Shown in pieces: positions 54 to 13,280 of a stretch of DNA of 44,227 nt (positions are counted from its first letter, which is position 1; each line of letters begins with the position of its first letter). The position numbers and the translations under genes were made by a program. The notes under the pieces are model-generated. The model ran no database searches. It was not told where the DNA came from and was given only the letters and a program-made list of their open reading frames with translations. This DNA is from Bacteroidota bacterium (lineage in GTDB: Bacteria; Bacteroidota; Bacteroidia; Flavobacteriales_D; Crocinitomicaceae), in NCBI GenBank assembly GCA_016866375.1, contig VGMK01000001.1, positions 1 to 44,227 of the forward strand, given 5' to 3'.

Positions 54-129
54 TGGCCCATGGTGTAACTGGCAACACGTCTGATTTTGGTTCAGAAGAG
101 TCTAGGTTCGAGCCCTAGTGGGCCAACCA
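54..129 (+). tRNA. tRNA-Gln, anticodon UUG, with encoded CCA
   Basis: Folded by hand. Perfect 7-bp acceptor stem TGGCCCA/TGGGCCA. D stem GTGT/ACAC. Anticodon stem TCTGA/TCAGA with loop TTTTGGT (anticodon TTG at 87-89). T stem CTAGG/CCTAG with TTCGAGC loop. Discriminator A126, CCA at 127-129. Confidence 0.9.
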
Positions 130-1702
130 AAGCGGGGATTTTGGCTAAAATGTCAAAATCCCCGTTTTTATAAGCCTCTACAAGCTTCGTCAAATAAGGA
201 ATCGTAGAAAAAAGCAAATTTATTCTTGAAGTTCGATAATCGTCTTTTTTTCGATCGTAGAATATTCCTCCCGGAAACACCAAATTCTGTATTCTTTGCT
301 TACTGTTGAAATTTGCATTTTTCCAAGTGGAAGGGAGTTTCAGGGCTAGTTCAAGACACTTTTCAGCTGATTTTTCAATGTTCGATAACTGATTTTGGCT
401 ATCATCCAATTCTGATTCAATTTGTCGAATGTTTTCTCGGAATTTTTCTCGGAATTTATAATAAACTGCTTGATCAATTTCACCCGTAAAAAATCGTTCT
501 TCGGCTCCTTCTAATTTTTGTTTTAACTGTGCTAGTTCTACCTGTAAGGCTTTTTTATCCTCAGATTTGACTTCTGTTCGTTCACTCAATAGATGAAGTA
601 GCATCTTTTTGAAAAGGGGTTTCAGAGCCTTGTCGAATGTGAAACCTTTCAATAAATCTTCGAATTTCAGATGTAAAACCTTTTGGCTGCGATTATTTGC
701 ACAACCCTTTAAATTGCACTTGTAATAGTATAAGCCCCTAGGCTTCACTAAATAACCAGTCATGCTTGTTCCACAACATTCGCATTTCAAAAATTGCTTC
801 ATTGGTAAATCTTCCACCTCTTGTTCAATTTTGTAGCCACTCGTAAACTTTACAAGATTTTGATGAACCTTTAAAAAGGTATTCTTTGAAACAAGAGGAG
901 GATGTTTCCCTTCAATCATTTCACCCGGAACCAATTTAGAAACAATAAACCCACAATAGAATGGATTTGCAAAGAACCGAGACAAGCGCTTGGCGGGAAT
1001 ATTCCAACCACGTGCACTTAATCGTTTGGCTATTTCCACCAAACTAAGGTCGTCATTTGCTTTCCATTCAAAGGCCTTTTTTAGCAATTTGCCTGTATCA
1101 TTGATGATCAACGTGTGTAGGTCGGCAGTTTTTCCTTGGTTAACGTTTGTATAGCCTGTAGGTGGCATAAACGGCCAGTAACCTTGCTTCAATTTTTCGA
1201 TCATTCCGGTCATAGACTTGTCTCTACGTAACTGGTTATCAAATTCACTGAATAGGTGATAGATTCCTTCCATGAAGTTTCCAGAAGGATCATTATGATC
1301 AATTGATTGAGTTACAGAAACGACTTTTACCCCTCGCTTTTTGAGTTCGTGCGAAATAAATGCACCACTTGGACCACTTCTGCTAAAGCGATCATAAGAA
1401 TAGACTATCACAAACCCAATGGACTTTTTGCGCTTTACAAAGCTTAGCATTTTTTGAAACTCCGTTCGTTCGTCGTCTTTTGCACTTTCATACGTGCCAC
1501 CAAAAAAATCAACAACATCTAAACCCTTCTCCTCAGCATATTTTTTACAATGCTTCAGCTGAGTGTCCAAACTCGCATTGTTGTCTGCTTGTTCTTTCGT
1601 GCTGACGCGTGTATATATGACGGCTTCAGTTTTAGCAACCTGACGCAATTCATCGCCTTTGGAAAATCGTTTAAATCTTATGTCTACTTGCATATTGCTC
1701 AA
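92..1702 (-). CDS. Large serine recombinase (resolvase-type catalytic domain, recombinase domain, zinc ribbon, coiled coil)
   Basis: N-terminal AVIYTRVSTKEQ catalytic-serine motif and YDRFSR. Cys-rich ribbon CECCGTSMTGY...YYYKCNLKGC. C-terminal coiled coil (ELAQLKQKLEGAEE). The last ~12 codons are antisense to the tRNA-Gln T-arm and acceptor. Confidence 0.9.
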   Translation of the reverse strand: MSNMQVDIRFKRFSKGDELRQVAKTEAVIYTRVSTKEQADNNASLDTQLKHCKKYAEEKGLDVVDFFGGTYESAKDDERTEFQKMLSFVKRKKSIGFVIVYSYDRFSRSGPSGAFISHELKKRGVKVVSVTQSIDHNDPSGNFMEGIYHLFSEFDNQLRRDKSMTGMIEKLKQGYWPFMPPTGYTNVNQGKTADLHTLIINDTGKLLKKAFEWKANDDLSLVEIAKRLSARGWNIPAKRLSRFFANPFYCGFIVSKLVPGEMIEGKHPPLVSKNTFLKVHQNLVKFTSGYKIEQEVEDLPMKQFLKCECCGTSMTGYLVKPRGLYYYKCNLKGCANNRSQKVLHLKFEDLLKGFTFDKALKPLFKKMLLHLLSERTEVKSEDKKALQVELAQLKQKLEGAEERFFTGEIDQAVYYKFREKFRENIRQIESELDDSQNQLSNIEKSAEKCLELALKLPSTWKNANFNSKQRIQNLVFPGGIFYDRKKDDYRTSRINLLFSTIPYLTKLVEAYKNGDFDILAKIPALVGPLGLEPRLF

Positions 1703-1897
1703 TTACTATTAAACAAAGTTCTTCCATCTGTTCCAACAGAAGTTGTGCAATTTCATCCGAAATCTTTCCTTCTGTTAATGTTTGTAAGTCCTTTACTGTT
1801 GGTTTTTCAAATTTTCGTATTTTTTTAATCAAACTTTAATTCACAGGTGTTTCCGGTCCGGGTTTCGGTTACGGGAAACGGGTTTTCAATGGTCCAT

Positions 1898-2824
1898 TTA
1901 TTTGGTGCCCTCATTTATTTTCATCAGAATTTTATTCTCAAAATCAACGATCTTGCCTTTTTGTGTTTTCAAGGAAATCATTTGGTAGCCATTTTTTGCA
2001 ATTACATCAAAAAATCTATGTTCAAGGGTTATGTTACTTTTTTCAACAATTTCCAAAAGGTCAGGTTCACCATTCTTGAAGCGAATGGTGATGGATGTGG
2101 CATCGTTTTTTCGAATATATTCTAAAATTTTTAATTCTGTCTTGGTCAACAAAGATGATTTTGATAACAACGACTCTGGTGACCATTCGTTGATTAAACT
2201 TCGGTAAGCTTCAGCGAAGCTTAGACAGAAATAGGGCTTTGAAACGAACGCTGCAAATTCCTCTTCCGTGGTGAGGTACTCATTATGTTTTGATGCCTCA
2301 TAGATAATATATTCACCGTCTTTATTCACAATGCAATGAAACCTTTTACGATATATAATTGTTGCCATTACAGCAGAGTCAAATATTGGTGGTCCGTCCT
2401 TATCAAATTGACTTATTAATTCTTCTGGGCTCATAGGCGAATCCATTTTCGAATTCAATTTGTCTAGAATTTGCTTTAGAAATTGCGGATCTAGCTCGTT
2501 TAAATCGACTTTTGGTTCGAGAAGGTTATTTTTTAGTTCCTTAATCGTACCGAGACTAATGCCCAAAGAGCGCATTTGCTGGATCAGCTTAATCCAGATG
2601 CTTTGAGCAAGGGTGTATTTCCGACGTAGACCTGGTCCTTTAATTTTGGGAAGTATTTCTTGCTTGTCCCAATAGGTTGCATCTCGGGGTGCAATCTTTA
2701 GGTCATTGATGCTGTATCTCGCTTGATTCATGGATTCTGCCAATTGTGGAAATTCTTCCGTTAGCACTGCTTCGGAAAGAAAATTGAATTCATCGGTGGA
2801 CAATATTTTTTTTTCTACATTCAT
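1898..2824 (-). CDS. MerR-like HTH domain protein with an uncharacterised C-terminal domain
   Basis: N-terminal YSINDLKIAPRDATYWDKQEILP...RRKYTLAQSIWIKLIQQMRSLGISLGTIKEL follows the MerR-family HTH pattern. The rest was not recognised. Confidence 0.5.
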   Translation of the reverse strand: MNVEKKILSTDEFNFLSEAVLTEEFPQLAESMNQARYSINDLKIAPRDATYWDKQEILPKIKGPGLRRKYTLAQSIWIKLIQQMRSLGISLGTIKELKNNLLEPKVDLNELDPQFLKQILDKLNSKMDSPMSPEELISQFDKDGPPIFDSAVMATIIYRKRFHCIVNKDGEYIIYEASKHNEYLTTEEEFAAFVSKPYFCLSFAEAYRSLINEWSPESLLSKSSLLTKTELKILEYIRKNDATSITIRFKNGEPDLLEIVEKSNITLEHRFFDVIAKNGYQMISLKTQKGKIVDFENKILMKINEGTK

Positions 2825-2826
2825 AA

Positions 2827-2856
2827 TTGACAGTATTGTAAATTAATATATCTTTG
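2827..2856 (+). promoter_or_regulatory. Bacteroidota-type promoter (TTG at -33, TAtcTTTG at -7) for the 2883 gene
   Basis: TTG at 2827-2829 and an exact TAnnTTTG at 2849-2856, spaced 19 bp apart, 26 nt upstream of the ATG at 2883. Confidence 0.5.
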
Positions 2857-2882
2857 CAAAAGAACGAAATATTTTTAAAATT

Positions 2883-3305: not shown

Positions 3306-3517
3306 TAGATACATTTCGAACAGTTCCGGCTTCGGAGCTTTTTGCCACGGAGATTGGCATTAGCGGAGCGCAACTCCCAACAAATGGCCCAGGAAGAAAA
3401 AATCCTTTGATCAAATATATTTTTGTCGGCGGTATTATTATTGGGGCCTTTATCTTGGCTTACCATCTACAGAATTCAGCGCCACCAAAAATTAAAAAAA
3501 GAGAAAATGATGAATGA
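3302..3517 (+). CDS. Small membrane protein
   Basis: ATGA start/stop overlap with the upstream gene. One hydrophobic helix (YIFVGGIIIGAFILAY). Confidence 0.4.
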   Translation: MIDTFRTVPASELFATEIGISGAQLPTNGPGRKNPLIKYIFVGGIIIGAFILAYHLQNSAPPKIKKRENDE

Positions 3518-3674
3518 ACACACGAAAACTTCAAAGCCTTCAAAAACAGTCTTAACGCCAACCCATAAGGCAATAAAAACTACCGCAACAGCCATTCTTT
3601 TCATTGCGGGAACTTGGCTTATACTAAAAATAAGTAAGGAAATGTTGAAGGAATTGGAGGGTATGGGGTTGTAG
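3507..3674 (+). CDS. Small membrane protein (start moved to the internal Met)
   Basis: MMNEHTKTSK... with one TM helix (ATAILFIAGTWLILKI). Overlaps the previous stop by 11 nt. Confidence 0.35.
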   Translation: MMNEHTKTSKPSKTVLTPTHKAIKTTATAILFIAGTWLILKISKEMLKELEGMGL

Positions 3675-3692
3675 CTTTCAAAATACAACCCC
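3665..3692. other. Perfect 9-bp inverted repeat (hairpin) spanning the stop codon
   Basis: GGGGTTGTA (3665-3673) and TACAACCCC (3684-3692) with a 10-nt loop. It is followed by an A-run rather than a T-run, so it is not a canonical intrinsic terminator. Confidence 0.35.
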
Positions 3693-3847
3693 AAAAAAAG
3701 ACCTTTATGAACTAAAAATTCAGGTAAACGATTTAAAGCCTATTCAGCGGTTTATGAGGGGGATTGAAGTTGATGTTAATACAAAGTAATATCGTGTATA
3801 AATCCAACTTTTCTTTATATCTTCATGCCCTACTACAAAAACTATTC

Positions 3848-4036
3848 ATGAACAGGATCAAAGAAGTACTTCAGCAAAAAGGCATAAAGCAAACCTGGTT
3901 GGCTGAGAAGTTGGGCAAAAGCTTCAATATTGTTAATGATTATTGCAATAATCGGAGACAACCAAGTATTGAAACTTTATTCAAAATTTCAGAATTAATG
4001 AATGTTAATGTCAGAGAATTGCTAAATGAAAAATAA
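3848..4036 (+). CDS. XRE-family HTH protein, positioned like an R-M controller (C) protein
   Basis: MNRIKEVLQQKGIKQTWLAEKLGKSFNIVNDYCNNRRQPSIETLFKISELMNVNVRELL is a typical Cro/C1 HTH. It overlaps the methyltransferase start by 11 nt. The ORF-track start at 3764 is a non-ATG extension. Confidence 0.75.
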   Translation: MNRIKEVLQQKGIKQTWLAEKLGKSFNIVNDYCNNRRQPSIETLFKISELMNVNVRELLNEK

Positions 4037-5348
4037 TAATAAAGTGAGATTTATTGATTTGTTTGCTGGTTTAGGAGGGATCAGGATTGGTTTTGAACAA
4101 GCTGCTTTAGAAACTGGTTTTAAAGCAGAGTGTGTATTTACCTCTGAAATAAAAACTTCTGCAATAGCAGCACTTCAAAATAATTTTGAGCATCATGATT
4201 TGGCAGGTGATATAACCAAGATACATGCTAATCAAATTCCAGATTTTGATGTTTTGCTCGCAGGTTTTCCATGCCAAGCTTTCAGCGTTGCAGGCAAACA
4301 AAAAGGTTTTGTCGACACAAGAGGGACTTTGTTTTTTGACATCGAGAGGATTCTAGAAGAAAAAAAACCTCATGGTTTTATATTAGAGAATGTTGAAGGC
4401 TTAGTTTTACATGATAGGTTAAATAAATCTGATAAAATTGGTCAAACACTTGAAACAATTTTGAATTCATTAAAAAAGAAATATAAAGTCAACTATAGGG
4501 TTTTAGACTCCAAGGAATTTGGTGTTCCTCAATCCAGAAGAAGAATCTTTATTGTTGGAACGAGAAAAAAAATAATTAATCTGGAAAATTTTGATAAACA
4601 CATAAATACAGTTGGAACAATCTTAGAAAATGATGTAGAATTCTCAAACACAAAATTCAGCAAATTGTTACTGAAATACTATAAGCCTGAAGAGCTGGAG
4701 GGTAAATTCATCAAAGATAAACGTGGAGGTTCAAAAAATATTCATAGTTGGGATATTGAAGCAAAAGGAAAAGTATCTAACGTTCAAAAAGAACTTTTGA
4801 ATAGGCTTTTTAAAGAGCGTAGAAAGAAGCATTGGGCTACAAAAATAGGCATTGATTGGATGGACGGTATGCCTTTAACACACGATCAAATCGGTTCTTT
4901 TTTTAATCATAAAGATTTGCATAAATTTTTGGATGACTTGGTTGAAAAAGGGTATTTAACGTTAGAACACCCAAAGAAAAAAATTCTCACGAATGATGCT
5001 CCACCCGTATTCGACCGAGTCCCTGACACTACTAAACCTAAGGGATATAATATAACCTCTGGTAAACTAAGTTTTGAATACAGTCATTTTTTAAATCCAA
5101 ATGCAATAGCTCCGACTCTAGTTGCTATGGATATGGACACAATAGGTGTTGTTGGAGAAAAAGGTATAAGAAAGCTAACAATACGTGAAGGTCTTCGTCT
5201 TTTTGGTTTTCCTGACACATACAATTTAGACTTTTTATGTGATTCAGAATTAAATAAAAGAAAAGCATATGATTTACTGGGTAATTCAGTATGTGTACCT
5301 GTTGTAAAGGCAGTATCGAAAAGGTTATTAGAAAATCTTGAATTATGA
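4026..5348 (+). CDS. DNA (cytosine-5)-methyltransferase
   Basis: Motif I FIDLFAGLGG. Motif IV GFPCQAFS. Motif VI ILENVEGL. Motif VIII QSRRRIFIVG. Motif X GNSVCVPV. A long variable target-recognition region lies between VIII and X. Confidence 0.95.
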   Translation: MKNNNKVRFIDLFAGLGGIRIGFEQAALETGFKAECVFTSEIKTSAIAALQNNFEHHDLAGDITKIHANQIPDFDVLLAGFPCQAFSVAGKQKGFVDTRGTLFFDIERILEEKKPHGFILENVEGLVLHDRLNKSDKIGQTLETILNSLKKKYKVNYRVLDSKEFGVPQSRRRIFIVGTRKKIINLENFDKHINTVGTILENDVEFSNTKFSKLLLKYYKPEELEGKFIKDKRGGSKNIHSWDIEAKGKVSNVQKELLNRLFKERRKKHWATKIGIDWMDGMPLTHDQIGSFFNHKDLHKFLDDLVEKGYLTLEHPKKKILTNDAPPVFDRVPDTTKPKGYNITSGKLSFEYSHFLNPNAIAPTLVAMDMDTIGVVGEKGIRKLTIREGLRLFGFPDTYNLDFLCDSELNKRKAYDLLGNSVCVPVVKAVSKRLLENLEL

Positions 5349-6256
5349 CCCCTGAAAAATTAAAATTCGAAGAATTATTGGCAACAACAACAATGTTTTT
5401 CGTAGAGAACGAGATAGAACAAAAATATTCTGATCGAATAGAATTAATTGTTTCTGATCTTAGAACAAAATTATCTCAAGTCAATAATGTAGAAGGATTA
5501 AAGAACTACATCCGTGAAGATAAAAAAGCTTTAGATAACCTACTTTGCCTTTTAAATATTTCAACAGAAAAGTTCAAACGCATTATTACTCTTTTGCGAC
5601 TAAATAAAAAATACACAATGTCAACAGAATGGTCACTTTCAAAAACCAGAAATTACATGGTGGAAAATGAGGCTTTTTTGAATGAAGTAACTGAATTGAT
5701 ATTAAATGGCGCAAATAACCCAAAATTCGAAGCGATTATTCCAAAATTTTATCTTGATAACTTCAAAATTGATATTGATGTAATATCCAGACTATCTAAC
5801 AAAGATGATTTGATTCGACTTGTAAAAGGTAATATCGAGACAAGTTACAACAATGATATTAGTCTAGCATACTCAAAGAGAATTATCGATTATCTAATCA
5901 AAATTTGTGAAAAAAATGGTCTTGATTATCAAGTAAAACCAGAAGTAAAATTTATAAATCGCGAGCCTTCTTTTACAATTCTCCATAACAATGCGATAAA
6001 AGGTATTATTGATATTTCATACATGATCACTACTTCCAGTTCTCAAACCCAATATGCGCGAAGAATTAAAGAAACATTTGAAATCCAAAAATCATATAAT
6101 GATTCACTCAACGAGTTTATTTATGTAATGATAATCGATGGTGCTGGCTGGTTTGGAAGACAATCTGATTTTCGATCTATTCACAAAACTTCAAGCCAAA
6201 TTTTAAATCTTAACACACTAGAAAGATTGGAAAAAATAATTAAAAATATAAACTAA
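5345..6256 (+). CDS. Candidate cognate type II restriction endonuclease (DpnII/MboI-like pattern)
   Basis: ATGA-coupled to the methyltransferase. IDISYMITTSSSQTQYARRIKE and the C-terminal VMIIDGAGWFGR...LNLNTLE resemble, from memory, the DpnII-family core and its C-terminal DGxGW motif. Not verified by search. Confidence 0.4.
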   Translation: MTPEKLKFEELLATTTMFFVENEIEQKYSDRIELIVSDLRTKLSQVNNVEGLKNYIREDKKALDNLLCLLNISTEKFKRIITLLRLNKKYTMSTEWSLSKTRNYMVENEAFLNEVTELILNGANNPKFEAIIPKFYLDNFKIDIDVISRLSNKDDLIRLVKGNIETSYNNDISLAYSKRIIDYLIKICEKNGLDYQVKPEVKFINREPSFTILHNNAIKGIIDISYMITTSSSQTQYARRIKETFEIQKSYNDSLNEFIYVMIIDGAGWFGRQSDFRSIHKTSSQILNLNTLERLEKIIKNIN

Positions 6257-6261
6257 AAACT

Positions 6262-7551
6262 ATGACATCTGAAGAAAGAAAACAATTACTATCCGAAATT
6301 CAAAAAAAACATGAACCTTATACTACTGGCGTTCCTTTGGTTTTTCATGGAGAAAGAAAACAATTCAATGTTTATAGGATTCCACTTGATATTTTGACAT
6401 ACAATCCCTATAATGGACGAATTGGAAGTGTTGTTAAATCTTTTGAGAGACAAAATCATACTTTGGATGCCAACAATCCTGAAGACATTAAGATTATTGA
6501 GGATTTTTTATGGAAATCCAAGGAGACTGCCAACAAAAAAACTATAGAAAGTCTACTCAATGATCATCAACAAAAGTTCGGAATTGTAACAGCCGATGGA
6601 AAAATAATTGACGGGAATCGAAGGGCAAGTCTCTTAAACAAAATTTGGAATGACAATAGCATTGATGTCAATAAGAAACAACATTGTCAATATTTTTACG
6701 CAATTATACTTCCAACAGATGCTGATAAAAAGGAAATTCTTAGGCTCGAGACCACTTATCAAATGGGTGAAGATGCTAAAGTGGATTACAATCCTATAGA
6801 AAAGTATTTAAAATGTGGGGATTTAGATGCTGAAGGATTTACTGTTGATGAAATTGCTTCATTTATGGGTATTAACAAAGCAGAGGTCCAAACTCAACTT
6901 AGAGTTCTTAATTTAATGAATGATTATTTGGAATACTGTGGATATGATGGAATGTACACTCAACTAGGTAATAATGAAGACTCATTTATAAAATTAGAGT
7001 CTGCATTGAAAAAATATAAAGCGGGTGGTGTTACAAGTATGTGGGATTACGAACCAGACACCGATGTAACAGATTTAAAATCTTGTGCTTTCGATTACAT
7101 TAGGCTTGGATTTCATCAGGATGATTTTAGAGATATAATACGTACTCCTAAAACCTCATCTTCCAGCTTTTTTGCTTCAAAAGAAATTTGGGAGTCATTT
7201 AGAGATAAACATTTTTCAATTGTTGAGGAGATCCAAGAAACACCTGTTGATAACCTGATAAAAGAAAATCCATTAGCTGATGTAAGTCGTTTGTTAAAAA
7301 TGAGAGATAATGAATGGCGAGAAAAAGTCAAAGATAATCTTAATAGAAACTATGAAGAACATCACGATAAATTATCAAACAAGCAAGAATCAAATGAACC
7401 ACTAAGATTGTTAAACAAGGCTTTGGATGCTTTATTAAATATCAATAACAAATCGTTAAAATCTATTCCTTTTAATGAAGTAAATTCAAGAATTTATAGC
7501 ATTGAATCTAAACTAGATGAATTAAAGAATAGTATGTCTGGTAATGAGTAG
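6262..7551 (+). CDS. ParB/Srx-fold (ParB-like nuclease domain) protein with a long helical C-terminus
   Basis: YRIPLDILTYNPYNGRI plus IVTADGKIIDGNRRASLL match the two ParB N-terminal-domain boxes. Starts 5 nt after the previous stop. Confidence 0.65.
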   Translation: MTSEERKQLLSEIQKKHEPYTTGVPLVFHGERKQFNVYRIPLDILTYNPYNGRIGSVVKSFERQNHTLDANNPEDIKIIEDFLWKSKETANKKTIESLLNDHQQKFGIVTADGKIIDGNRRASLLNKIWNDNSIDVNKKQHCQYFYAIILPTDADKKEILRLETTYQMGEDAKVDYNPIEKYLKCGDLDAEGFTVDEIASFMGINKAEVQTQLRVLNLMNDYLEYCGYDGMYTQLGNNEDSFIKLESALKKYKAGGVTSMWDYEPDTDVTDLKSCAFDYIRLGFHQDDFRDIIRTPKTSSSSFFASKEIWESFRDKHFSIVEEIQETPVDNLIKENPLADVSRLLKMRDNEWREKVKDNLNRNYEEHHDKLSNKQESNEPLRLLNKALDALLNINNKSLKSIPFNEVNSRIYSIESKLDELKNSMSGNE

Positions 7552-9505
7552 CCATAATAGTATCATATTTAGTCATGATGAATCAACAAACGAAATTGTT
7601 GTAGATGGTTCATTTGAAAAACTTTTATCAAATAAAAGATCCAAACTATTTCTAAAAGAATATCTGGATTTTACTATTGATGAAACCTGTATTCGCGTTA
7701 AAATCAGAGAAGAATTAAATAAAACTATCGAGCTTCTAAAAAAGGCAGCTTCCTATACAGACTTAGCTTTGGAGTTTAGTTCGAATGTGTCTTATGAAAT
7801 AAATTCCTATTTAAATCAAGAAAAACAGTTTGAAATATACGCAAACAAAGCGTTAAAGATTAGAAATAATGATTGTGATTTAGAAGACTTTCAAAATTTC
7901 CGAAAATCTGTTGAAAAGAAATTAACCGGAAGAGTTTTGTATCCATTACAGTTTTTATCGGCTTATCATTTGGCGTTCGCACAAAATGCATGTAATTTTT
8001 CTGTACCTGGTGCTGGTAAAACTAGCATTGTATATGGAGCTTTCTCATATTTATCATCACTAAATGAGGATCATCCAAAAAAAGTTGATCGATTAATAAT
8101 TCTAGGACCTTTGAGTTCTTTCGGCCCATGGGAGAATGAATTTGAAGAATGTTTTGAAAGAAAACCAACAAGTATCCGATTATCAGGAGGTATACCTCTT
8201 GAACAAAAAAAACAATTGTTGTATACTTCAACACCTCCAGAAATAGTTCTGCTTTCATATGCATCTTTAATTTCAATAAAAGAGGAATTGAAGTATTATC
8301 TATCACGTAACAGATGTATGGTAGTGCTTGATGAAGCACATAAAATTAAAAATGTAAATGATGGAATAATCGCTCAGTCAGCATTAGAAATTGCTTCATT
8401 ATGTCAATCTAGGGTAATATTGACAGGGACACCAGCGCCCAACGGATATGAGGATTTAAACAACCTTTTTAGATTTATTTGGCCATCTAAAAAAATCATC
8501 AAATTTAACAGTGGTCAGTTAAAGGATATGTCAAGAAATCAAAATGATTCAAGAGTTGAATTATTAATTGATTCAATTTCACCTTTCTTCATTAGAATCA
8601 AAAAAAGTGACCTGAATATTCCAGCAGCAAATGAAAATTCTCCTGTATTTTTTGAAATGTCAGCATCACAAAGACGTCTCTATGATATTATTGAAAAGAA
8701 ATTTGTTAACGAACTCAGTAATGTCCAGGAAAAATCAATCTACAATTCTCTCGCTAGAGCTCGAATGATAAGATTAATGCAGGTTGCTTCAAATCCTCGC
8801 CTTCTGCGAGAACCATTATCTCAAATGGATGATTTTGAATTAAATTCAGAATTTCTAGATGATTCAATTTTTTTAAATGATATTAAGGATTTATATAGCG
8901 ATTCGATACCCACTAAATTTACTGAAACTGGAAAAATTGTAAAAAAAATTATCGATCAAAATGAAAAAATAATAATCTGGTGCTGTTTCACAAAAAGTAT
9001 CTCAGGTCTTAGCGAATACTTAAAATCAATTGGGATTGAAAGCCGTGTATTGCAAGGGAGTACACCTATTGAAAGAGAAGCACAGAATGATTCAAGCTAC
9101 GAGGAAGAAACTAGGGAATCAATAATTCGTGATTTTCATAAACCAGATTCAAGTTTTAAGGTTATTCTAGCTAATTCTTTCGCAGTTTCAGAATCTATTT
9201 CACTTCATAAAGTTTGCCATAATGCTCTTTATTTTGAAAGATCCTTTAATGCATCTCACTACATTCAGTCAAAAGATAGAATACACCGATATGGACTGCC
9301 AGCTGATACAATAACAAACTATTATTATTTATTAGCTTCTAATTCAATCGAAGAAACTATACATCAGAGGTTATTTGAAAAGGAACAGCGATTGTTAGAG
9401 ATTATAGAGAGTATGCCTATTCCGTTGTTTAACGTTGTAGAAGAACAAGATTCTGATATCAATGCCATTTTAAGAGACTATGCTAGAAGAACTAAAGCAG
9501 TTTAA
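7544..9505 (+). CDS. SNF2-family helicase/translocase
   Basis: Motif I VPGAGKTS. Motif II VVLDEAHKIKN. Motif III ILTGTPAPNG. Motif VI QSKDRIHRYGL. 8-nt overlap with the ParB-like gene. Confidence 0.9.
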   Translation: MSSHNSIIFSHDESTNEIVVDGSFEKLLSNKRSKLFLKEYLDFTIDETCIRVKIREELNKTIELLKKAASYTDLALEFSSNVSYEINSYLNQEKQFEIYANKALKIRNNDCDLEDFQNFRKSVEKKLTGRVLYPLQFLSAYHLAFAQNACNFSVPGAGKTSIVYGAFSYLSSLNEDHPKKVDRLIILGPLSSFGPWENEFEECFERKPTSIRLSGGIPLEQKKQLLYTSTPPEIVLLSYASLISIKEELKYYLSRNRCMVVLDEAHKIKNVNDGIIAQSALEIASLCQSRVILTGTPAPNGYEDLNNLFRFIWPSKKIIKFNSGQLKDMSRNQNDSRVELLIDSISPFFIRIKKSDLNIPAANENSPVFFEMSASQRRLYDIIEKKFVNELSNVQEKSIYNSLARARMIRLMQVASNPRLLREPLSQMDDFELNSEFLDDSIFLNDIKDLYSDSIPTKFTETGKIVKKIIDQNEKIIIWCCFTKSISGLSEYLKSIGIESRVLQGSTPIEREAQNDSSYEEETRESIIRDFHKPDSSFKVILANSFAVSESISLHKVCHNALYFERSFNASHYIQSKDRIHRYGLPADTITNYYYLLASNSIEETIHQRLFEKEQRLLEIIESMPIPLFNVVEEQDSDINAILRDYARRTKAV

Positions 9506-10439
9506 TACAATAGGTGATCGATCCGGGATTTTATTTTTGTCCAGACAAATATTTTGTGAGGGTGTTTCGAATGCAGAATTATTAAGAAACAAAAGTGTTA
9601 TTAATCCTGAAATTCGATTAAACCCAAAACTATCATTAAAATTTTTGATGTTCCTAGATTTAATTCATATTTCCGGTGAAGAATTTTCATTGACAAAAAA
9701 AGGTGTTTATCTCCAAAATAATTTTGAAAATACATTTTACAATAAAATAGGCTTATTGGTAATAAAACGATTAATTGATTTAAAAATACTTGATATAAAT
9801 AGTATTAAAATAGAAACAAGGGGTTCCGTTGTTTTTTACGAATTACCCGCATTTCCTTTGAATGCTGCCATATTCAGGAATTTTCTAATTGAAATCGGCT
9901 TATTACAAAACATTAAAGGGATCTATTATCTACATTTGCCTAAAGACCAAGAGGAGTCTTTTGTTAGAACTATAAGGAAAAGACATCGATTAATCTCACA
10001 AGATGAATTATTAAAAAAATTAGAGAAACAAAGAGAGCAAGGGATCATTGCCGAGAAATGGGTGGTTGAATATGAAAAGAGAAGGATTTTAAATCATGAT
10101 TTAATTGAAAAAATCAAATTAATATCAGACATTGATATTCAAGCTGGATACGACATTCTCTCATTTAATAATCGATACTCAACACATTACGATAGATGTA
10201 TTGAAGTCAAATCTTATAGTGATAATCTTCATTTTTACTGGTCTAAAAATGAATCTGAAATTGCCTTTTTAAAAGGTGATAATTATTTTTTATACCTAAT
10301 AGACATAAACAAAATAAGCAATCCAAATTACGAACCTTTAATAATTAAAAATCCAAAAAAAGTTCTTCATGAAGACAATAATTGGATTGTGGAGACTCAA
10401 ACATATTTGATATCGAAAATTCAAGGTATTGATTTCTAA
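9480..10439 (+). CDS. DUF3883-like (restriction-endonuclease-fold) C-terminal domain protein
   Basis: GYDILSFNN...RCIEVKSYSDNLHFYWSKNESEIAFLKGDNYFLYLI matches the DUF3883/NO VEIN C-terminal pattern (D...E-x-K core). 26-nt overlap with the SNF2 gene. Confidence 0.6.
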   Translation: MLEELKQFNTIGDRSGILFLSRQIFCEGVSNAELLRNKSVINPEIRLNPKLSLKFLMFLDLIHISGEEFSLTKKGVYLQNNFENTFYNKIGLLVIKRLIDLKILDINSIKIETRGSVVFYELPAFPLNAAIFRNFLIEIGLLQNIKGIYYLHLPKDQEESFVRTIRKRHRLISQDELLKKLEKQREQGIIAEKWVVEYEKRRILNHDLIEKIKLISDIDIQAGYDILSFNNRYSTHYDRCIEVKSYSDNLHFYWSKNESEIAFLKGDNYFLYLIDINKISNPNYEPLIIKNPKKVLHEDNNWIVETQTYLISKIQGIDF

Positions 10440-10519
10440 ATTCATGAATTGGTGATGATATTATTTCTTGACTTATCAAATTCAAAAATCATACTAAATA
10501 TTTCATTTTTAAAAATGAC

Positions 10520-10940
10520 TTGATGAAATTCGGTTTCCGCATACCATCTCTAACCAAACGAATAGCAGCACGCACATCATTGAAGCTAGTTATTCGCCAC
10601 AATTTAGGTTTCAAAGCACCTAAAGGTTTTGGTTGGTTCACAAATCCAAAAAAAAGCAGCTTACAACAAAGTCTACAACAAAACATCACGAGGTTGTTTG
10701 GTCAACTTACTTTTCTTGGTTTCATTTGGTTTTCTAACATTTTCAATCCCTTCCTGCGATTTCAAGAAATCGGATAAAACAGGAGGTACTTATGTCAAAC
10801 CCTCCGTAAACTACAAAGGTCAAACACGCAAAGGTCACGTGCGCAGAAAAGTTAGCACCGATAAAAACGCCATCAAAAACCAAAATCGGTCACGGTATTA
10901 TTACCAGGCGAGGGGGAAGTATAGGAGGAAGAATTATTGA
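10520..10940 (+). pseudogene. Small basic protein gene interrupted by a +1 frameshift in an A8 tract
   Basis: Frame A gives MMKFGFRIPSLTKRIAARTS...GFGWFTNPKK. Frame B continues AAYNKVYNKTSRGCLVNLLFLVSFGFL...RKNY. The frames join if the A8 run at 10648-10655 is A7. Confidence 0.55.
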
Positions 10941-11239
10941 GTAGCTCGTTTGGCTTGAATTTCATTTTTTTAAAGTTTGGAAAAAGAAATTACCTCGTTG
11001 GATTTTGAGGTAAATTAATTTCATATCAAACTTAGCTTGAAAAAAACATTGGATTTTACAATAAAATCATACTTAATATTCCATTAGTTAAAAAAAATCA
11101 ATATTTTTTGCAATTTTACAAATGTGATTAAATCCAATAAAAGAAGATTTTAAAGATCGGCCGTATATACTCTAAATCGCAAGAATAAGTCAATTAGTTA
11201 AAGGAAGTTGAAATACGGATTAATTTAAAATAAAGTTAA

Positions 11240-13147
11240 ATGATACTTTTCTTCGATACAGAAACAACTGGGTTGCCTAAAAACTGGAAAGCACCAGTTA
11301 CAGACTTGGATAATTGGCCTCGATTAGTCCAGTTAGCCTATTTAGTATATGATTTTGACGGAAATTTAATTCTTTCGTGCAATGAGATTATAAAACCTAA
11401 TGGATTCATAATTCCGACTGACGCCTCAAAAGTTCATGGAATTACCACTGAAATTGCGAATCAAAGAGGCAGTAAAATTGAAGAAGTATTTGAATTATTC
11501 TCCATTCATTTAAGTCGAGCAAAAGTTGTTGTTGCCCATAATATGGCATACGATGAAAAAATTATAGGTTCGGAATTGATTCGTTTGGGCTTTCATAATA
11601 TCCTTGATGATAAAGAAAAAATTTGTACAATGATCTCAACTGTAGATCTGTGCAAAATCGATGGTCCGTATGGCTATAAATGGCCAAGATTGGAGGAATT
11701 ACATCGTTTTTTGTTTAAACACGATTTCGATGGTGCACATGATGCCTTGGCAGATATTCAGGCAACGGCGAAGTGTTTTTGGGAGTTGAAAAAGCAACAG
11801 ATTATTGAAGTAAACAATAGATCCATACCAACGATTTCTAAGTCTTTAATGGAAAAAATCAAGAAAGCCATATGGCTTGATGAAAATAGAGAAGTCGATG
11901 AAGAAAGTATTGAAATAGGTGGGCAGATTTGGACTAAAAGAAACCTAAATGTTGATTGTTTTAGAAATGGAGACTTAATACAAGAAGCGAGAAGTAATGA
12001 AGAATGGCAAAAAGCATCAGATGAAAAAAAACCAGCTTGGTGTTACTATGATAATGACCCAGTCAACGGGAAAAAATATGGTAAATTATACAATTGGTAT
12101 GCGGTCAACGATCCAAGAGGGTTGGCTCCTGAGGGATGGTCAATTCCCACTATAGAAGAATGGGAGATTTTAAGGGATGAACTTGGAGAAAATTATACCA
12201 CAAAAATTATAGATTGTGCTGATTGGTTAGATTGTCCTGACTGGATTGAAAATTCGGATGAGATTAATAATAGTGGTTTTTCTGGATTACCAGGAGGGGG
12301 AAGAATGGTAAATGGAGTTTTTTACAATAACATAAAAAAAGAGTATCTATATTTTTATGAATTCGATTTATTCAAACGTAGTCGTAGAGATAGAAATGAA
12401 CTAGGTAAAGATGCTACTTGGTGGACTTCATCAGAGTGTTTCGATTATGAATTGCCAGGAGTAACAAAAAAAGAGATGGCTAAATGTTTTATGATTAATG
12501 ATTTTCTTTTTGAACTACTTATGGGTAATTCTAACATCAGAGAAAAAGGCAAAGGATTCTCTGTTCGCTGCATTAAATCAAAAAAATATAATAATGAAGA
12601 GTTTTTAAGGATTAACGGAAAAATTTGGATGAAGAATAATCTGAATGTTGAACGTTTTCGTAATGGCGATATAATTTTTGAAGCAAAAACCGATGAGGAA
12701 TGGAAAAGAGCGGGAGAATTAGGAATTCCTGCATGGTGCTACTATAAAAATGACAATGACATAGGCAGAATAAATGGTAAACTATACAATTGGTTTGCGG
12801 TAAATGATCCTCGTGAATTAGCTCCTGAAGGTTGGCGTGTGCCTTCGAAACAAGACTGGTTAGAATTAGAATCCTTTTATGATTGGAGATGGGAACATGA
12901 TGATGATCCACAGTTTCATCCTACATGGATTTTATGGAAAGAAATGAGAATAAACACTGAAGGTTATCGAGGACCCGTTGATTTTGATACGGATGCTATA
13001 GGTTACTGTCTTTGGTGGACTTCTTCTATTGTGGAAAATGATGATTCATCAGCTTACATCTTTAACTATGAACCTTATTGGTCGATAAGTTTGTCCAACT
13101 CATTTTTAACCTGCGGAATTTATGTTAGATGCATAGAGGATATTTAA
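11240..13147 (+). CDS. DnaQ-like DEDDh 3'-5' exonuclease fused to two FISUMP (Fibrobacter succinogenes major paralogous) domains
   Basis: Exo motifs ILFFDTETTG, HNMAYDEKII, HDALADIQAT. Then two copies of I(G/N)GxIW(T/M)KxNLNVxxFRNGD...PAWCYY.ND...GKLYNW(Y/F)AVNDPR.LAPEGW.(I/V)P...W..L...WWTSS. No signal peptide. Confidence 0.85.
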   Translation: MILFFDTETTGLPKNWKAPVTDLDNWPRLVQLAYLVYDFDGNLILSCNEIIKPNGFIIPTDASKVHGITTEIANQRGSKIEEVFELFSIHLSRAKVVVAHNMAYDEKIIGSELIRLGFHNILDDKEKICTMISTVDLCKIDGPYGYKWPRLEELHRFLFKHDFDGAHDALADIQATAKCFWELKKQQIIEVNNRSIPTISKSLMEKIKKAIWLDENREVDEESIEIGGQIWTKRNLNVDCFRNGDLIQEARSNEEWQKASDEKKPAWCYYDNDPVNGKKYGKLYNWYAVNDPRGLAPEGWSIPTIEEWEILRDELGENYTTKIIDCADWLDCPDWIENSDEINNSGFSGLPGGGRMVNGVFYNNIKKEYLYFYEFDLFKRSRRDRNELGKDATWWTSSECFDYELPGVTKKEMAKCFMINDFLFELLMGNSNIREKGKGFSVRCIKSKKYNNEEFLRINGKIWMKNNLNVERFRNGDIIFEAKTDEEWKRAGELGIPAWCYYKNDNDIGRINGKLYNWFAVNDPRELAPEGWRVPSKQDWLELESFYDWRWEHDDDPQFHPTWILWKEMRINTEGYRGPVDFDTDAIGYCLWWTSSIVENDDSSAYIFNYEPYWSISLSNSFLTCGIYVRCIEDI

Positions 13148-13280
13148 TCTAATTAAGAAGGTTCTTATACTAGGTTATCTAAAGAACTGAGATAGAAGCG
13201 TACTTTAAGAAATTACTTTTATTTTGAATCCATTAAGAAATACTTGTAATTTATAACTTTCAATTCAATAAAAATAAAGG

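What the first reader, a model, noticed from the sequence alone, without database searches (positions are those of the whole stretch)
6262..10439. ParB-like / SNF2 helicase / DUF3883 nuclease-like trio welded onto a type II R-M cassette
The three genes overlap or nearly abut: a 5-nt gap to the R-M genes, then 8-nt and 26-nt overlaps.
- The first has both ParB N-domain boxes (YRIPLDILTYNPYNGRI, DGNRRASLL).
- The second has a full SNF2 motif set (GAGKT, DEAH, TGTP, QSKDRIHR).
- The third has a DUF3883-type D...E-x-K core.

Together this gives a translocase, a candidate PD-(D/E)xK nuclease and a ParB/Srx-fold NTPase or nuclease in the same transcription unit as a C5 methyltransferase. That is the logic of methylation-gated multi-subunit defence systems such as DISARM or BREX. 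However, none of their signature genes (DUF1998, PglZ, PLD) is present. I cannot match this gene set to a named system from memory.
Basis: partly seen in the sequence, partly recalled or inferred. Interest (0 to 1): 0.72.

Follow-up and report, generated by a model that had tools for sequence, protein, structure and literature searches.

The report
ParB-fold-centred, methylation-gated restriction operon
The three genes are real and belong to a widespread, unnamed five-gene DNA-defence operon (cytosine methylase, restriction-enzyme-like reader, ParB-like nucleotide switch, SNF2 motor, nuclease) that is inherited as one unit across many bacterial phyla and is not in the defence-system catalogues searched here.

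Summary
Gene coordinates, gap and overlaps, and all quoted motifs are correct.

- **ParB-like protein:** it matches no Pfam, PADLOC or NCBIfam model. Its AlphaFold model matches Spo0J, KorB and pNOB8 ParB.
- **Functional unit:** the unit is five genes, not three. The BanI/DpnII-like restriction-enzyme gene always sits directly upstream of the ParB-like gene (75/75 metagenome loci found through the restriction-like gene). Pairwise distances of all five proteins correlate at r = 0.92–0.96 over 76 loci.
- **Variants:** some lack the restriction-like gene and carry a longer C5 methylase. Others swap SNF2+DUF3883 for an α/β-hydrolase or a PLD–SNF2 fusion. On plasmids the ParB-like+SNF2 pair follows type III mod/res.
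- **Methylase linkage:** a C5 methylase lies within 7 kb in 65 of 70 loci.
- **Mobility:** the window copy lies beside a tRNA-Gln gene and a serine recombinase gene. Other copies sit near the ends of predicted viral contigs.

Best reading: a methylation-gated, NTP-dependent restriction system. The ParB-fold protein couples a site reader to a translocase-nuclease effector. No named system or paper matched. I rate it a new variant of a known kind. The mechanism is inferred, not shown.

The parts
3764..4036 (+). Small XRE/Cro-type HTH protein, a C-protein-like regulator. The likely real start is the ATG at 3849. It overlaps the methylase start.
   Evidence: PF01381 HTH_3 at 1.5e-13. PADLOC gave weak Control_protein and capH hits. 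The sequence was read. A homologous HTH sits upstream of the methylase in L038, L079 and L157.
4026..5348 (+). C5 cytosine DNA methyltransferase (440 aa), the self-protection arm.
   Evidence: PF00145 at 1.2e-76 and TIGR00675 at 329.7 bits (cut-off 100.65). PADLOC MTase_II at 6.4e-101. Best PDB sequence match is M.HhaI at 7.7e-45. It co-inherits with the other four genes (r = 0.92-0.96).
5345..6256 (+). BanI/DpnII-family type II restriction-endonuclease-fold protein (303 aa). Predicted reader of the unmethylated site, and probably a nuclease.
   Evidence: 24 of 25 family members hit Pfam RE_BanI (best 1.6e-11) and DpnII (best 1.6e-8). The AF2 model has pLDDT 93.6. Top Foldseek PDB hits are BstEII, BsoBI and EcoT38I. 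Invariant residues are shared with stand-alone R-M relatives. It is always directly upstream of the ParB-like gene (75/75).
6262..7551 (+). ParB/Srx-fold protein (429 aa), predicted NTP-dependent switch or clamp. It has an N-terminal ParB domain with three box-like motifs: NPYNGRI, DGNRR and QMGEDAK. These are followed by a ParB-type HTH, a helical domain and a C-terminal long-helix tail.
   Evidence: No Pfam, PADLOC or NCBIfam hit. Fold match to Spo0J, KorB and pNOB8 ParB. The motifs are invariant in 27 sequences. The HTH region aligns to the Spo0J HTH. There are 2100 word-index hits and 1587 cluster representatives at E <= 1e-3.
7544..9505 (+). SNF2-family ATPase/translocase (653 aa) with a family-specific N-terminal region of about 150 aa.
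   Evidence: PF00176 at 7.9e-24 and PF00271 at 7.1e-8. PDB sequence matches include Snf2, Fft3, BRG1 and SsoRad54. All helicase motifs are conserved in at least 95% of 60 relatives. It is directly downstream of the ParB-like gene in 60 of 67 loci with room.
9480..10439 (+). DUF3883/NOV_C PD-(D/E)xK nuclease (319 aa), the predicted DNA-cutting effector. It overlaps the SNF2 stop by 26 nt.
   Evidence: PF13020 at 1.5e-10. PADLOC PD-T4-1 at 2e-14 and PDC-S36 at 2e-11. D225 and E242-x-K244 are conserved in at least 80% of 54 relatives. A 17-26-nt overlap with SNF2 recurs across loci.
54..2824 (.). Context marking a probable integrated mobile element: tRNA-Gln (54-129, +), a large serine recombinase (92-1702, -) and a MerR-like protein (1898-2824, -).
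   Evidence: ARAGORN and Rfam tRNA calls. Resolvase, Recombinase and Zn_ribbon_recom domains. MerR_1. G+C is about 0.30-0.33 over 4-19 kb against 0.35-0.39 in the flanks.

Best explanation
Window 3764-10439 is one operon encoding a five-component, C5-methylation-gated, NTP-dependent restriction system, plus a small regulator.

**Shown by comparative data**
- The methylase, the BanI/DpnII-like restriction-fold protein, the ParB-fold protein, the SNF2 ATPase and the DUF3883 nuclease are inherited together as a single unit across phyla.
- The restriction-fold gene was not found without the ParB-fold gene in the loci sampled.
- A C5 methylase accompanies the ParB-fold gene in essentially every complete locus.
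- The partner genes around the ParB-fold protein are interchangeable.

**Inferred mechanism**
1. The methylase marks host sites.
2. The restriction-fold protein binds, and perhaps nicks or cuts, unmethylated sites. In variants that lack it, the methylase does this reading through its extra C-terminal domain.
3. That event switches on or loads the ParB-fold protein. Its ParB boxes, HTH and C-terminal long-helix tail fit an NTP-gated DNA clamp or switch like ParB and KorB.
4. The ParB-fold protein then engages the SNF2 translocase and its translationally coupled DUF3883 nuclease.
5. These move along the foreign DNA and nick or degrade it.

The ParB-fold protein is therefore the coupling hub between a modification-sensitive reader and an effector.
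For: **Co-inheritance**
- The five genes are present in order in about 45 of 78 genome loci found through the ParB-like protein.
- ParB-like is directly downstream of the restriction-like gene in 75 of 75 metagenome loci found through that gene.
- Pairwise-distance matrices of the five proteins correlate at r = 0.92-0.96 over 76 non-redundant loci.
- The gene junctions (abutting genes, and a 17-26-nt SNF2/DUF3883 overlap) are conserved.

**Methylase dependence**
- A C5-methylase ORF lies within 7 kb in 65 of 70 typed loci. The exceptions are four short contigs and one locus with only a trace.
- One protein, P0209, is an in-frame fusion of a long-methylase C-terminal half to a full ParB-like protein.

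**Hub role of the ParB-like protein**
- It is the constant partner of different effectors:
  - SNF2+DUF3883 (types A and B);
  - an α/β-hydrolase (type C, 8 loci);
  - PLD-SNF2 fusions (Priestia, L. plantarum and Exiguobacterium plasmids).
- It is also the constant partner of different readers and modifiers: BanI/DpnII-like, MutH-like, long C5 methylase, and type III mod/res.

**Activity is plausible**
- ParB boxes are invariant and the fold matches Spo0J and KorB.
- SNF2 motifs and the DUF3883 D...ExK are conserved.
- The restriction-like protein keeps the residues that are invariant in its stand-alone R-M relatives.

**Defence context**
- The window copy sits next to tRNA-Gln and a serine recombinase.
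- 22 IMG/VR loci lie mostly within a few kb of the ends of predicted viral contigs.
- The system forms genes 1-5 of the Streptococcus prophage record Javan191.
- Neighbours include Vsr, an XRE+ImmA/IrrE pair, AspBHI-like and GmrSD genes.

**Precedent**
- HmaA, an SNF2+NOV_C fusion, alone protects against T4 through nickase activity (PMC11232893).
Against: - There is no experimental datum for any member. Defence, methylation sensitivity, NTP binding and protein contacts are all inferred.
- If the restriction-like protein is a fully active type II enzyme, the need for the other three proteins is unexplained.
- The known ParB-fold proteins in modification-based systems (DndB, DpdB) act in the modification arm, not the restriction arm (PMC12839542, PMC10853773).
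- Distant ParB-like+SNF2 pairs on about 50 Enterococcus plasmids follow an 864-aa Sigma70_r4 protein. No methylase or nuclease was annotated in the one locus inspected (L161). The pair may therefore have a broader or different role.
- Two SNF2 relatives at 47-48% identity in IMG/VR lack a ParB-like neighbour.
- The canonical D...(D/E)xK could not be located in the restriction-like protein.
- The methylase-ParB-like fusion is a single case. Its contig could not be retrieved.
Confidence: 0.6

Rival explanations
1. Two independent systems travel together. One is an ordinary, self-sufficient type II R-M pair (C5 methylase plus BanI/DpnII-like enzyme). The other is a separate ParB-like/SNF2/DUF3883 defence module, Hma- or PD-T4-1-like. 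It does not read the methyl mark and is only genetically linked, as in a defence island.
For: - The restriction-like protein has full-length relatives that are plain two-gene R-M enzymes, and it keeps their invariant residues.
- SNF2+NOV_C (HmaA) and single DUF3883 proteins (PD-T4-1) defend without needing a methylase (PMC11232893; PADLOC hit).
- The methylase can sit on the opposite strand, downstream (35 of 76 loci).
Against: - Linkage is far tighter than in a defence island. It is 75/75 in one direction and 46/46 in the other, with fixed order and overlapping genes.
- Distance matrices correlate at r = 0.92-0.96, which means no module shuffling.
- When the restriction-like gene is absent, the trio still always has a C5 methylase.
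- A methylase can be fused to the ParB-like protein.
Confidence: 0.15
2. The ParB-like+SNF2 pair serves the modification arm or the mobile element's own interests. An ATP/CTP-driven translocating complex would help the methylase mark DNA quickly. Precedents are the DarB-type methylase-SNF2 dyads of phages and plasmids, DpdB with DpdA, and DndB as a regulator of modification.
For: - The methylase-CTD::ParB-like fusion, and the long-methylase variants that lack a restriction-like gene.
- Known ParB-fold proteins in Dnd and Dpd act on modification (PMC12839542).
- Methylase-SNF2 dyads and ParB domains are typical of phage and plasmid polyvalent proteins (PMC5512222).
- Many copies are on plasmids and in predicted viral contigs.
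Against: - SNF2 is always coupled to a nuclease: a DUF3883 gene overlapping its stop, or an N-terminal PLD fusion.
- In the window type, the ParB-like gene is translationally coupled to the restriction-like gene. The methylase may be separate and convergent.
- An α/β-hydrolase partner (type C) makes no sense for a methylation helper.
Confidence: 0.12
3. The system composition is the same, but the ParB-fold protein is itself a nuclease. It would be an NTP-regulated non-specific nickase like Osa, GmrS-type or ParB-methylase proteins, rather than a clamp or switch. SNF2/DUF3883 would then be processing factors.
For: - ParB/Srx domains with DNase or nickase activity regulated by NTP are documented (summarised in PMC5512222 and PMC12839542).
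- The invariant acidic motif QMGEDAK and the invariant DGNRR could serve metal or phosphate chemistry.
Against: - The architecture is that of partition-type ParB and KorB clamps: N-domain, HTH and a C-terminal long-helix tail. The best fold matches are Spo0J and KorB, not nucleases.
- Every variant already carries a dedicated effector enzyme.
Confidence: 0.1
4. The genes have a non-defence role. The ParB-like protein and SNF2 would act in partition, nucleoid remodelling or transcriptional control of the mobile element that carries them.
For: - The fold resembles partition ParB and the repressor KorB.
- Enterococcus plasmid relatives sit next to a sigma-70-region-4 protein.
Against: - There is no ParA partner in the window-type loci.
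- The genes are obligately linked to a methylase, a restriction-fold protein and nucleases.
- Chromosomal copies occur in many phyla.
Confidence: 0.03

Closest known systems
Hma system (HmaA SNF2+Helicase_C+NOV_C, HmaB methylase, HmaC DUF499 ATPase; Payne 2021; PMC11232893)
   Same: - It uses the same effector domain pair, SNF2 ATPase plus DUF3883/NOV_C PD-(D/E)xK nuclease.
- It is associated with a DNA methylase and a third NTPase.
- HmaA is experimentally anti-phage, through NOV_C nickase activity.
   Different: - Here SNF2 and DUF3883 are two overlapping genes rather than one fusion.
- There is no PADLOC HmaA hit.
- The methylase is a classical C5 enzyme (PF00145), not DUF1156.
- The accessory NTPase is a ParB-fold protein, not a DUF499 AAA+.
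- An extra BanI/DpnII-like restriction-fold protein is present.
ATP-dependent type II enzymes CglI/NgoAVII (C5 methylase + R protein + N helicase-like ATPase) [from my own knowledge]
   Same: A C5 methylase is combined with a site-specific nuclease subunit that depends on a separate SF2 ATPase subunit. It is a type II-like recognition module joined to an NTP motor.
   Different: - The R subunit there is PLD plus a B3-like domain, not BanI/DpnII-like.
- There is no ParB-fold protein and no DUF3883.
- No homology was tested here.
DISARM (class 2: DrmMII C5 methylase, DrmA, DrmB/DUF1998, DrmC/PLD, DrmE; class 1 has DrmD SNF2)
   Same: It follows the same multi-gene logic of methylase plus helicase plus nuclease. 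The window methylase hits DrmMII models as a generic C5 methylase (4.5e-55). The SNF2 protein hits DrmD weakly (1e-8, partial).
   Different: DrmA, DrmB (DUF1998), DrmC and DrmE are absent. The core protein here is of the ParB fold.
ParB/KorB CTP-dependent DNA clamps and other ParB/Srx-fold NTPases in defence (DndB, DpdB, DUF262 of GmrSD/BrxU/SspE)
   Same: - It has the same fold.
- It has GxxR-type box II (DGNRR), box I-like NPYNGRI and box III-like QMGEDAK.
- A ParB-type HTH follows the N-domain.
- The ParB fold is known to bind CTP, ATP or GTP (PMC12704722).
   Different: - It is not detected by PF02195, PF03235, DndB or DGQHR models.
- There is no ParA and no HNH/DUF1524 fusion.
- It sits in the restriction-type operon rather than the modification operon.
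PbeA-like PLD-helicase proteins / PLD_Helicase
   Same: In distant relatives of this system, the SNF2 partner of the ParB-like protein carries an N-terminal PLD nuclease. That PLD domain matches the N-terminus of PbeA at 1e-65.
   Different: - This applies only to relatives, not to the window.
- PbeB, PbeC and PbeD are absent.
- Only the PLD domain matches strongly.
Classical DpnII/BanI-type two-gene type II R-M
   Same: The restriction-like protein is homologous over its full length to enzymes of plain M+R pairs (27-30% identity). It has a type II restriction-endonuclease fold.
   Different: - The sister enzymes pair with PF01555 amino-methylases and have no downstream partners.
- The window subfamily pairs with a C5 methylase.
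- The window subfamily was not found without ParB-like/SNF2/DUF3883 in the loci sampled.

Membership tests
Type II restriction-modification | Cognate DNA methyltransferase | tested here: met
   PF00145 at 1.2e-76. TIGR00675 at 329.7 bits against a cut-off of 100.65.
Type II restriction-modification | Restriction endonuclease of a known type II family | tested here: inconclusive
   The window copy scores below the Pfam cut-offs: RE_BanI 23.4 bits against 28, and DpnII 20 bits against 23. However, 24 of 25 family members match, with a best E-value of 1.6e-11. The fold also matches BstEII, BsoBI and EcoT38I. A canonical D...(D/E)xK was not located.
Type II restriction-modification | The endonuclease acts on its own (Mg2+ only, no NTP, no extra subunits) | not testable with these tools
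   Strict linkage to ParB-like/SNF2/DUF3883 (75/75) argues against independence. Only biochemistry can decide.
DISARM | DrmA helicase + DrmB (DUF1998) core, with DrmC PLD or DrmD/DrmE | tested here: not met
   A PADLOC scan of all operon proteins gave no DrmB, DrmC or DrmE hit. There were only partial SNF2-level hits to DrmD (>= 1.3e-8) and DrmA (2.5e-4).
BREX | PglZ phosphatase and BrxC ATPase | tested here: not met
   No PglZ or BrxC hit in PADLOC or Pfam for any operon protein. There was only an 8.4e-5 partial hit of SNF2 to BrxHII.
Hma | HmaA (SNF2-NOV_C fusion), HmaB (DUF1156 methylase), HmaC (DUF499 ATPase) | tested here: not met
   No HmaA, HmaB or HmaC model appears among the PADLOC hits. 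The domain pair SNF2+NOV_C is present but split into two genes.
Zorya / Dpd | ZorA/ZorB membrane pair; or DpdA (TGT) + DpdB + DpdC | tested here: not met
   Only the SNF2 protein hits ZorD and DpdE, at about 3e-20 over the helicase core. No other component hit.
ParB/Srx superfamily | ParB N-terminal fold with a GxxR phosphate-binding motif | tested here: met
   Foldseek probability is 1.0 to Spo0J, KorB and pNOB8 ParB-N. DGNRR is invariant in 27 sequences. Sequence models (PF02195 and others) give no hit, so membership rests on fold and motif.
ParB/Srx superfamily | NTP (CTP/ATP/GTP) binding and hydrolysis; DNA clamping | not testable with these tools
   Needs DRaCALA or ITC and cross-linking or single-molecule assays.
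DndB / DGQHR and DUF262 (GmrSD_N) ParB-like families | Match to family models (DGQHR/DGQQR motif) | tested here: not met
   No hit in Pfam, NCBIfam (E <= 0.1) or PADLOC. The motif here is DGNRR.
SNF2 family ATPases | SNF2 N-lobe plus Helicase_C with motifs I-VI | tested here: met
   PF00176 at 84.7 bits (cut-off 24.9) and PF00271 at 33.1 bits (cut-off 23.5). Motifs are conserved in 60 relatives. PDB sequence matches are to Snf2 and Rad54.
DUF3883/NOV_C PD-(D/E)xK nucleases | NOV_C domain with D...ExK | tested here: met
   PF13020 at 41.5 bits (cut-off 22.1). D225, E242 and K244 are conserved.

The most novel reading that the evidence does not exclude
A ParB-fold, NTP-gated DNA clamp has been recruited as the signal relay of an immune system.
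1. It is loaded or switched at unmethylated sites by a restriction-enzyme-fold reader, or by the methylase itself.
2. It then spreads or slides along the DNA.
3. It delivers interchangeable effectors: SNF2+DUF3883, PLD-SNF2 or an α/β-hydrolase.

This would define a new class of 'ParB-dependent' restriction systems. It would also be the first defence role for the ParB/KorB clamp mechanism.
Probability: 0.3. Interest if true: 0.85.

Novelty: new variant of a known kind. Interest (0 to 1): 0.7.

Why it matters
If the reading is right, this is a widespread multi-subunit restriction system that current defence annotation misses.
- The ParB-like family has about 1,600 clusters at 50% identity.
- It is found in Bacillota, Bacteroidota, Pseudomonadota, Actinomycetota, Chloroflexota, Melainabacteria, Saccharibacteria and Cloacimonadota.
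- Its hub protein is 'hypothetical' in every source that names it.

It would extend the ParB-CTPase fold, currently studied for chromosome segregation and plasmid gene silencing, to immunity.

It also offers a natural experiment in how one switch protein is wired to different readers (restriction-fold protein, methylase, type III mod/res) and different effectors (translocase-nuclease, PLD-helicase, hydrolase).

It bears on an open question for DISARM, BREX and Hma-type systems: how a methyl mark read at one site is converted into action elsewhere on the DNA.

Several cultured strains carry the system, so it is directly testable. Examples are Heyndrickxia shackletonii LMG 18435, Clostridium puniceum DSM 2619, Sellimonas catena JCM 35622 and Streptococcus infantis OMI699.

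Tried and rejected
1. **Sequence-model identification of the ParB-like protein.**
   - Pfam, PADLOC, NCBIfam and PDB phmmer/hmmsearch gave nothing usable.
   - Only the fold search worked.
2. **Does the extra C-terminal domain of the long methylases replace the restriction-like protein by homology?** hhalign of 23 such domains against the restriction-like alignment gave probability 0.5%. The idea was rejected.
3. **Canonical PD-(D/E)xK triad in the restriction-like protein.**
   - It was not found.
   - D223 is only 80% conserved and there is no lysine.
   - Catalytic status is left open.
4. **Promoter and terminator scan of 3300-11400.** Counts equal shuffled expectation, so it was uninformative.
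5. **Structure prediction with locus-derived alignment A2.** It was redone with alignment A3 of database proteins.
6. **Retrieving the contig of the methylase::ParB-like fusion P0209.** It is not on record.
7. **Literature.**
   - Seven full-text searches found no description of this gene set. They combined ParB, SNF2, DUF3883, methyltransferase, defence, CTP and restriction.
   - The cytosine-methylase-linked Dnd/CxC systems of PMC10853773 are a different system.
   - The ParB-CTPase survey PMC12704722 surveys domain fusions defined by Pfam entries. This family, which has no Pfam hit, is probably outside its scope.
8. **Considered and rejected:**
   - DISARM, BREX, Zorya, Dpd and Hma membership (see the membership tests);
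   - a type IV (modification-dependent) reading, because a methylase is always present;
   - a partition function, because there is no ParA.

Full report
**1. Observation**

The ORF table places five co-directional genes end to end.
- 4026-5348: C5 methylase.
- 5345-6256: restriction-like protein.
- 6262-7551: ParB-like protein.
- 7544-9505: SNF2 protein.
- 9480-10439: DUF3883 protein.

The junctions are a 4-nt overlap, a 5-nt gap, an 8-nt overlap and a 26-nt overlap. A small HTH ORF ends at 4036, inside the methylase start.

Pfam confirms the SNF2 protein (PF00176 7.9e-24 and PF00271), the NOV_C/DUF3883 protein (PF13020 1.5e-10) and the methylase (PF00145 1.2e-76).

The 429-aa protein has no hit in Pfam, PADLOC-DB 2.0.0 or NCBIfam 20. 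It has none by sequence against the PDB either. An AlphaFold2 model built on 27 homologues (pLDDT 86, pTM 0.80) matches these structures at Foldseek probability 1.0:
- Thermus Spo0J (1vz0);
- RK2 KorB (8qa9, 8qa8);
- the pNOB8 ParB N-domain (5k5d).

The match to Spo0J spans about 208 alignment columns, which covers the N-domain plus the HTH.

In the family alignment, NPYNGRI, IIDGNRRA and QMGEDAK-DY-P-EKY are invariant. The segment after them aligns to the Spo0J HTH. The model ends in a 56-residue helix and a further helix. The 'ParB-like' call is therefore right, on fold and motif evidence rather than on a family model.

**2. What the unit is**

*Size and spread of the ParB-like family.*
- It is large and strongly conserved: 2100 hits in the word-indexed search, about 60% identity between phyla, and every source name is 'hypothetical protein'.
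- A profile search of 1.84 billion cluster representatives gave 1587 at E <= 1e-3, 933 at 1e-10 and 229 at 1e-30.
- A scan of one genome per species returned 78 loci. They come from Bacillota, Bacteroidota, Pseudomonadota, Actinomycetota, Chloroflexota, Melainabacteria, Saccharibacteria and Cloacimonadota.

*Three architectures.* tblastn and an ORF-family clustering of these loci show three types.
- **Type A (38 or more loci, the window type).** C5 methylase (440-500 aa), restriction-like protein, ParB-like protein, SNF2 and DUF3883. The methylase is either upstream and co-oriented or downstream and convergent.
- **Type B (about 22-24 loci).** Usually Vsr, then a longer C5 methylase (535-571 aa, with a C-terminal extension of about 200 aa and no Pfam match), then ParB-like, SNF2 and DUF3883. 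There is no restriction-like gene.
- **Type C (8 loci).** C5 methylase plus ParB-like protein plus a 275-aa α/β-hydrolase (PGAP1-like). It is sometimes placed next to a type B set.

A C5-methylase ORF lies within 7 kb in 65 of 70 typed loci. The five exceptions are four short contigs and one locus (L067) with only a tblastn trace.

*Reverse tests.*
- A metagenome scan started from the restriction-like alignment returned 80 loci. All 75 with more than 400 nt downstream carry the ParB-like gene immediately downstream. Where the contig allows, SNF2, DUF3883 and the methylase are there too.
- In IMG/VR, SNF2 relatives fall into 22 hits at 47-55% identity. Identity then drops to 26% or less.
- Twenty of those 22 are in ParB-like loci. 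Two partial hits (L207, L208) are not.

*Co-inheritance.* Over 76 non-redundant complete type A loci, the pairwise-distance matrices of the five proteins correlate at r = 0.92-0.96. The cassette therefore moves as one piece, methylase and restriction-like gene included. The 17-26-nt SNF2/DUF3883 overlap and the abutting ParB-like/SNF2 junction recur across loci.

**3. The restriction-like protein**

- Twenty-four of 25 family members match Pfam RE_BanI (best 1.6e-11) and DpnII (best 1.6e-8) over the C-terminal ~100 residues. The window copy is just below both cut-offs.
- Its AlphaFold2 model (pLDDT 93.6) finds type II enzymes first: BstEII 9ibq, BsoBI 1dc1, EcoT38I 7edb and BsaWI.
- Homologues at 33-35% identity (P0167, P0169) sit in complete type A systems.
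- Homologues at 27-30% identity (P0170, P0172, P0173) sit in plain two-gene R-M pairs. These have a PF01555 amino-methylase and nothing like ParB, SNF2 or NOV_C downstream.
- The invariant residues of the joint alignment hold in both groups. They are E75, K78, R79, R85, E95, T229, T230, Q234, G266, G268, W269, R272, D275 and N288.

The window protein therefore probably keeps the activity of its stand-alone relatives. I could not, however, place a canonical D...(D/E)xK. Today, though, this subfamily was not found without its three downstream partners in the loci sampled.

**4. More distant relatives**

tblastn against annotated plasmids found 70 records, at about 30-34% identity over the N-terminal half.
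- In Enterococcus sp. DA9 and Limosilactobacillus reuteri p53608_1, the overlapping ParB-like+SNF2 pair follows type III mod and res genes.
- In Priestia megaterium p1, a Lactiplantibacillus plantarum plasmid and an Exiguobacterium plasmid, the SNF2 partner is 851-862 aa long.
  - It carries an N-terminal PLD nuclease domain. In the two copies scanned (Priestia and L. plantarum), that domain matches the N-terminus of PbeA at about 1e-65.
  - In the first two there is a divergent dcm gene. In L. plantarum there is also a MutH-like protein and Vsr.
- About 50 Enterococcus plasmid records carry a near-identical match. In the one locus inspected (L161), the pair follows an 864-aa protein with a sigma-70 region 4 motif, and no methylase was annotated.
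- None of these ParB-like proteins hits PADLOC or NCBIfam.
- One database protein, P0209, is an in-frame fusion. The C-terminal half of a long methylase (40% identity to L061 residues 278-526, E 1e-55) is joined to a complete ParB-like protein. Its contig could not be retrieved.

**5. Context**

- In the window, the operon lies 2-3.6 kb from a tRNA-Gln gene, a large serine recombinase and a MerR-like gene. The stretch has lower G+C.
- In IMG/VR, the 22 loci lie mostly within a few kb of the ends of predicted viral contigs.
- The complete type A set forms genes 0001-0005 of the prophage record Streptococcus phage Javan191.
- Recurrent neighbours are Vsr, an XRE-HTH plus ImmA/IrrE metallopeptidase pair (about 20 loci), MutH/Sau3AI-like enzymes, an AspBHI-like type IV enzyme and GmrSD.

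**6. Mechanism**

*Shown.* Co-inheritance is established. So are the presence of a methylase in essentially every complete locus, the conservation of the enzymatic motifs, and the interchangeability of partners around a constant ParB-fold protein.

*Inferred.*
1. The methylase protects host sites.
2. The restriction-fold protein detects unmethylated sites. In type B the methylase does this through its extra domain; on plasmids type III mod/res does it.
3. The ParB-fold protein converts that event into engagement of the effector, as an NTP-gated switch or clamp.
4. SNF2 with DUF3883 translocates and nicks or degrades the DNA.

The strongest argument for a hub or switch role is that the ParB-like protein is the one constant. 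Readers vary (BanI/DpnII-like, MutH-like, methylase, type III). Effectors vary too (SNF2+DUF3883, PLD-SNF2, α/β-hydrolase).

HmaA supplies the precedent that SNF2+NOV_C is an anti-phage effector whose nuclease nicks DNA (PMC11232893). The ParB fold is now known to bind CTP, ATP or GTP in different families (PMC12704722).

I put 0.6 on this overall reading. I put about 0.8 on the narrower claim that the five genes form one methylation-gated defence unit.

**7. Rivals**

1. An independent type II pair plus a separate module (0.15). This is contradicted by the strictness of linkage and by methylase-only variants.
2. ParB-like/SNF2 as helpers of methylation or as a mobile-element counter-defence (0.12).
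   - For: the DarB-type dyads and ParB DNases of PMC5512222, DndB and DpdB, and the methylase fusion.
   - Against: the ever-present nuclease and the hydrolase variant.
3. The ParB-fold protein as the nickase itself (0.10).
4. A non-defence role (0.03).

**8. Comparison and novelty**

Membership of DISARM, BREX, Zorya, Dpd and Hma was tested with PADLOC, Pfam and NCBIfam and not met. The DndB/DGQHR and DUF262 families were also not met.

In function, the closest known systems are these:
- Hma, which has the same effector domains, fused;
- the ATP-dependent type II enzymes CglI and NgoAVII (from my own knowledge; not tested here);
- DISARM, which shares the general logic.

Seven literature searches found no description of this gene set. 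I rate it a new variant of a known kind: a multi-subunit, NTP-dependent, methylation-gated restriction system whose distinguishing part is an unannotated ParB-fold hub.

There are two limits. The PADLOC copy dates from 2023, and DefenseFinder and REBASE could not be queried. A recent naming therefore cannot be excluded.

Noticed in passing
L055, L062, L064, L066, L068, L070, L073, L077 (e.g. L077:10001-12020): 'Type C' variant: a C5 methylase plus a ParB-like protein plus a ~275-aa PGAP1-like α/β-hydrolase, in place of SNF2+DUF3883. In L055, L064 and L068 it sits beside a full type B set. A lipase- or esterase-type effector hints at an abortive-infection branch.
   Followed up: partly
L161 (NZ_CP098027.1) 4366-10041, and ~50 other Enterococcus plasmid records with a near-identical match: The operon encodes an 864-aa protein with a sigma-70 region 4 motif, a distant ParB-like protein and a 620-aa SNF2 protein. 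No methylase or nuclease is annotated. It is very common on Enterococcus plasmids, and its function is unknown.
   Followed up: partly
L160 (NZ_CP042840.1) 2032-10022; L186 (LN906635.1) 2933-11184: Type III mod + res genes are followed directly by an overlapping ParB-like + SNF2 pair. This suggests the pair is an add-on to R-M systems of different types.
   Followed up: partly
P0209 (database protein, contig not retrievable): An in-frame fusion of the C-terminal half of a long C5 methylase to a complete ParB-like protein. It is either a real Rosetta-stone fusion or a stop-codon or assembly artefact.
   Followed up: partly
about 20 type A loci, e.g. L014:15500-17500, L001 upstream: An XRE-HTH (~125 aa) plus ImmA/IrrE Peptidase_M78 (~220 aa) pair lies next to the methylase. 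This is the same domain pair as the CapH/CapP-type damage-responsive regulators of other defence systems (the comparison is from memory). The window has only a small C-protein-like HTH.
   Followed up: no
window 11240-16653: A DEDDh (DnaQ-like) exonuclease is fused to two Fib_succ_major/FISUMP domains (11240-13147). It is followed by a 589-aa ORF with no hit in any library (13281-15050), then exodeoxyribonuclease I/SbcB (15115-16653). It is an unusual cluster of exonucleases just downstream of the operon.
   Followed up: no
window 19699-24922: An operon of two DUF4407 proteins, an OmpA/MotB-like protein (weak ZorB hit over the OmpA domain only) and a 571-aa protein with no hit. It may be another membrane-anchored conflict system.
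   Followed up: no
window 26953-39571: A 1231-aa TPR-rich protein lies in a G+C-rich (0.48-0.50), A-skewed stretch. It is followed by three large ORFs with no hits (844, 769 and 510 aa) and a STAND-like NTPase (NPHP3_N/AAA_16, 38084-39571). The window looks like a defence or conflict island.
   Followed up: no
L207:4995-6038; L208:4010-7147: Two IMG/VR SNF2 relatives (47-48% identity over part of the protein) have no ParB-like, restriction-like or methylase neighbour. L208 is a 1045-aa fusion protein. The SNF2 subfamily is therefore not strictly confined to this system.
   Followed up: partly
L155:5950-8081: A decayed copy: the restriction-like gene and a C-terminally truncated ParB-like gene (386 aa) are followed by unrelated genes on the other strand. 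SNF2, DUF3883 and the methylase are missing.
   Followed up: no
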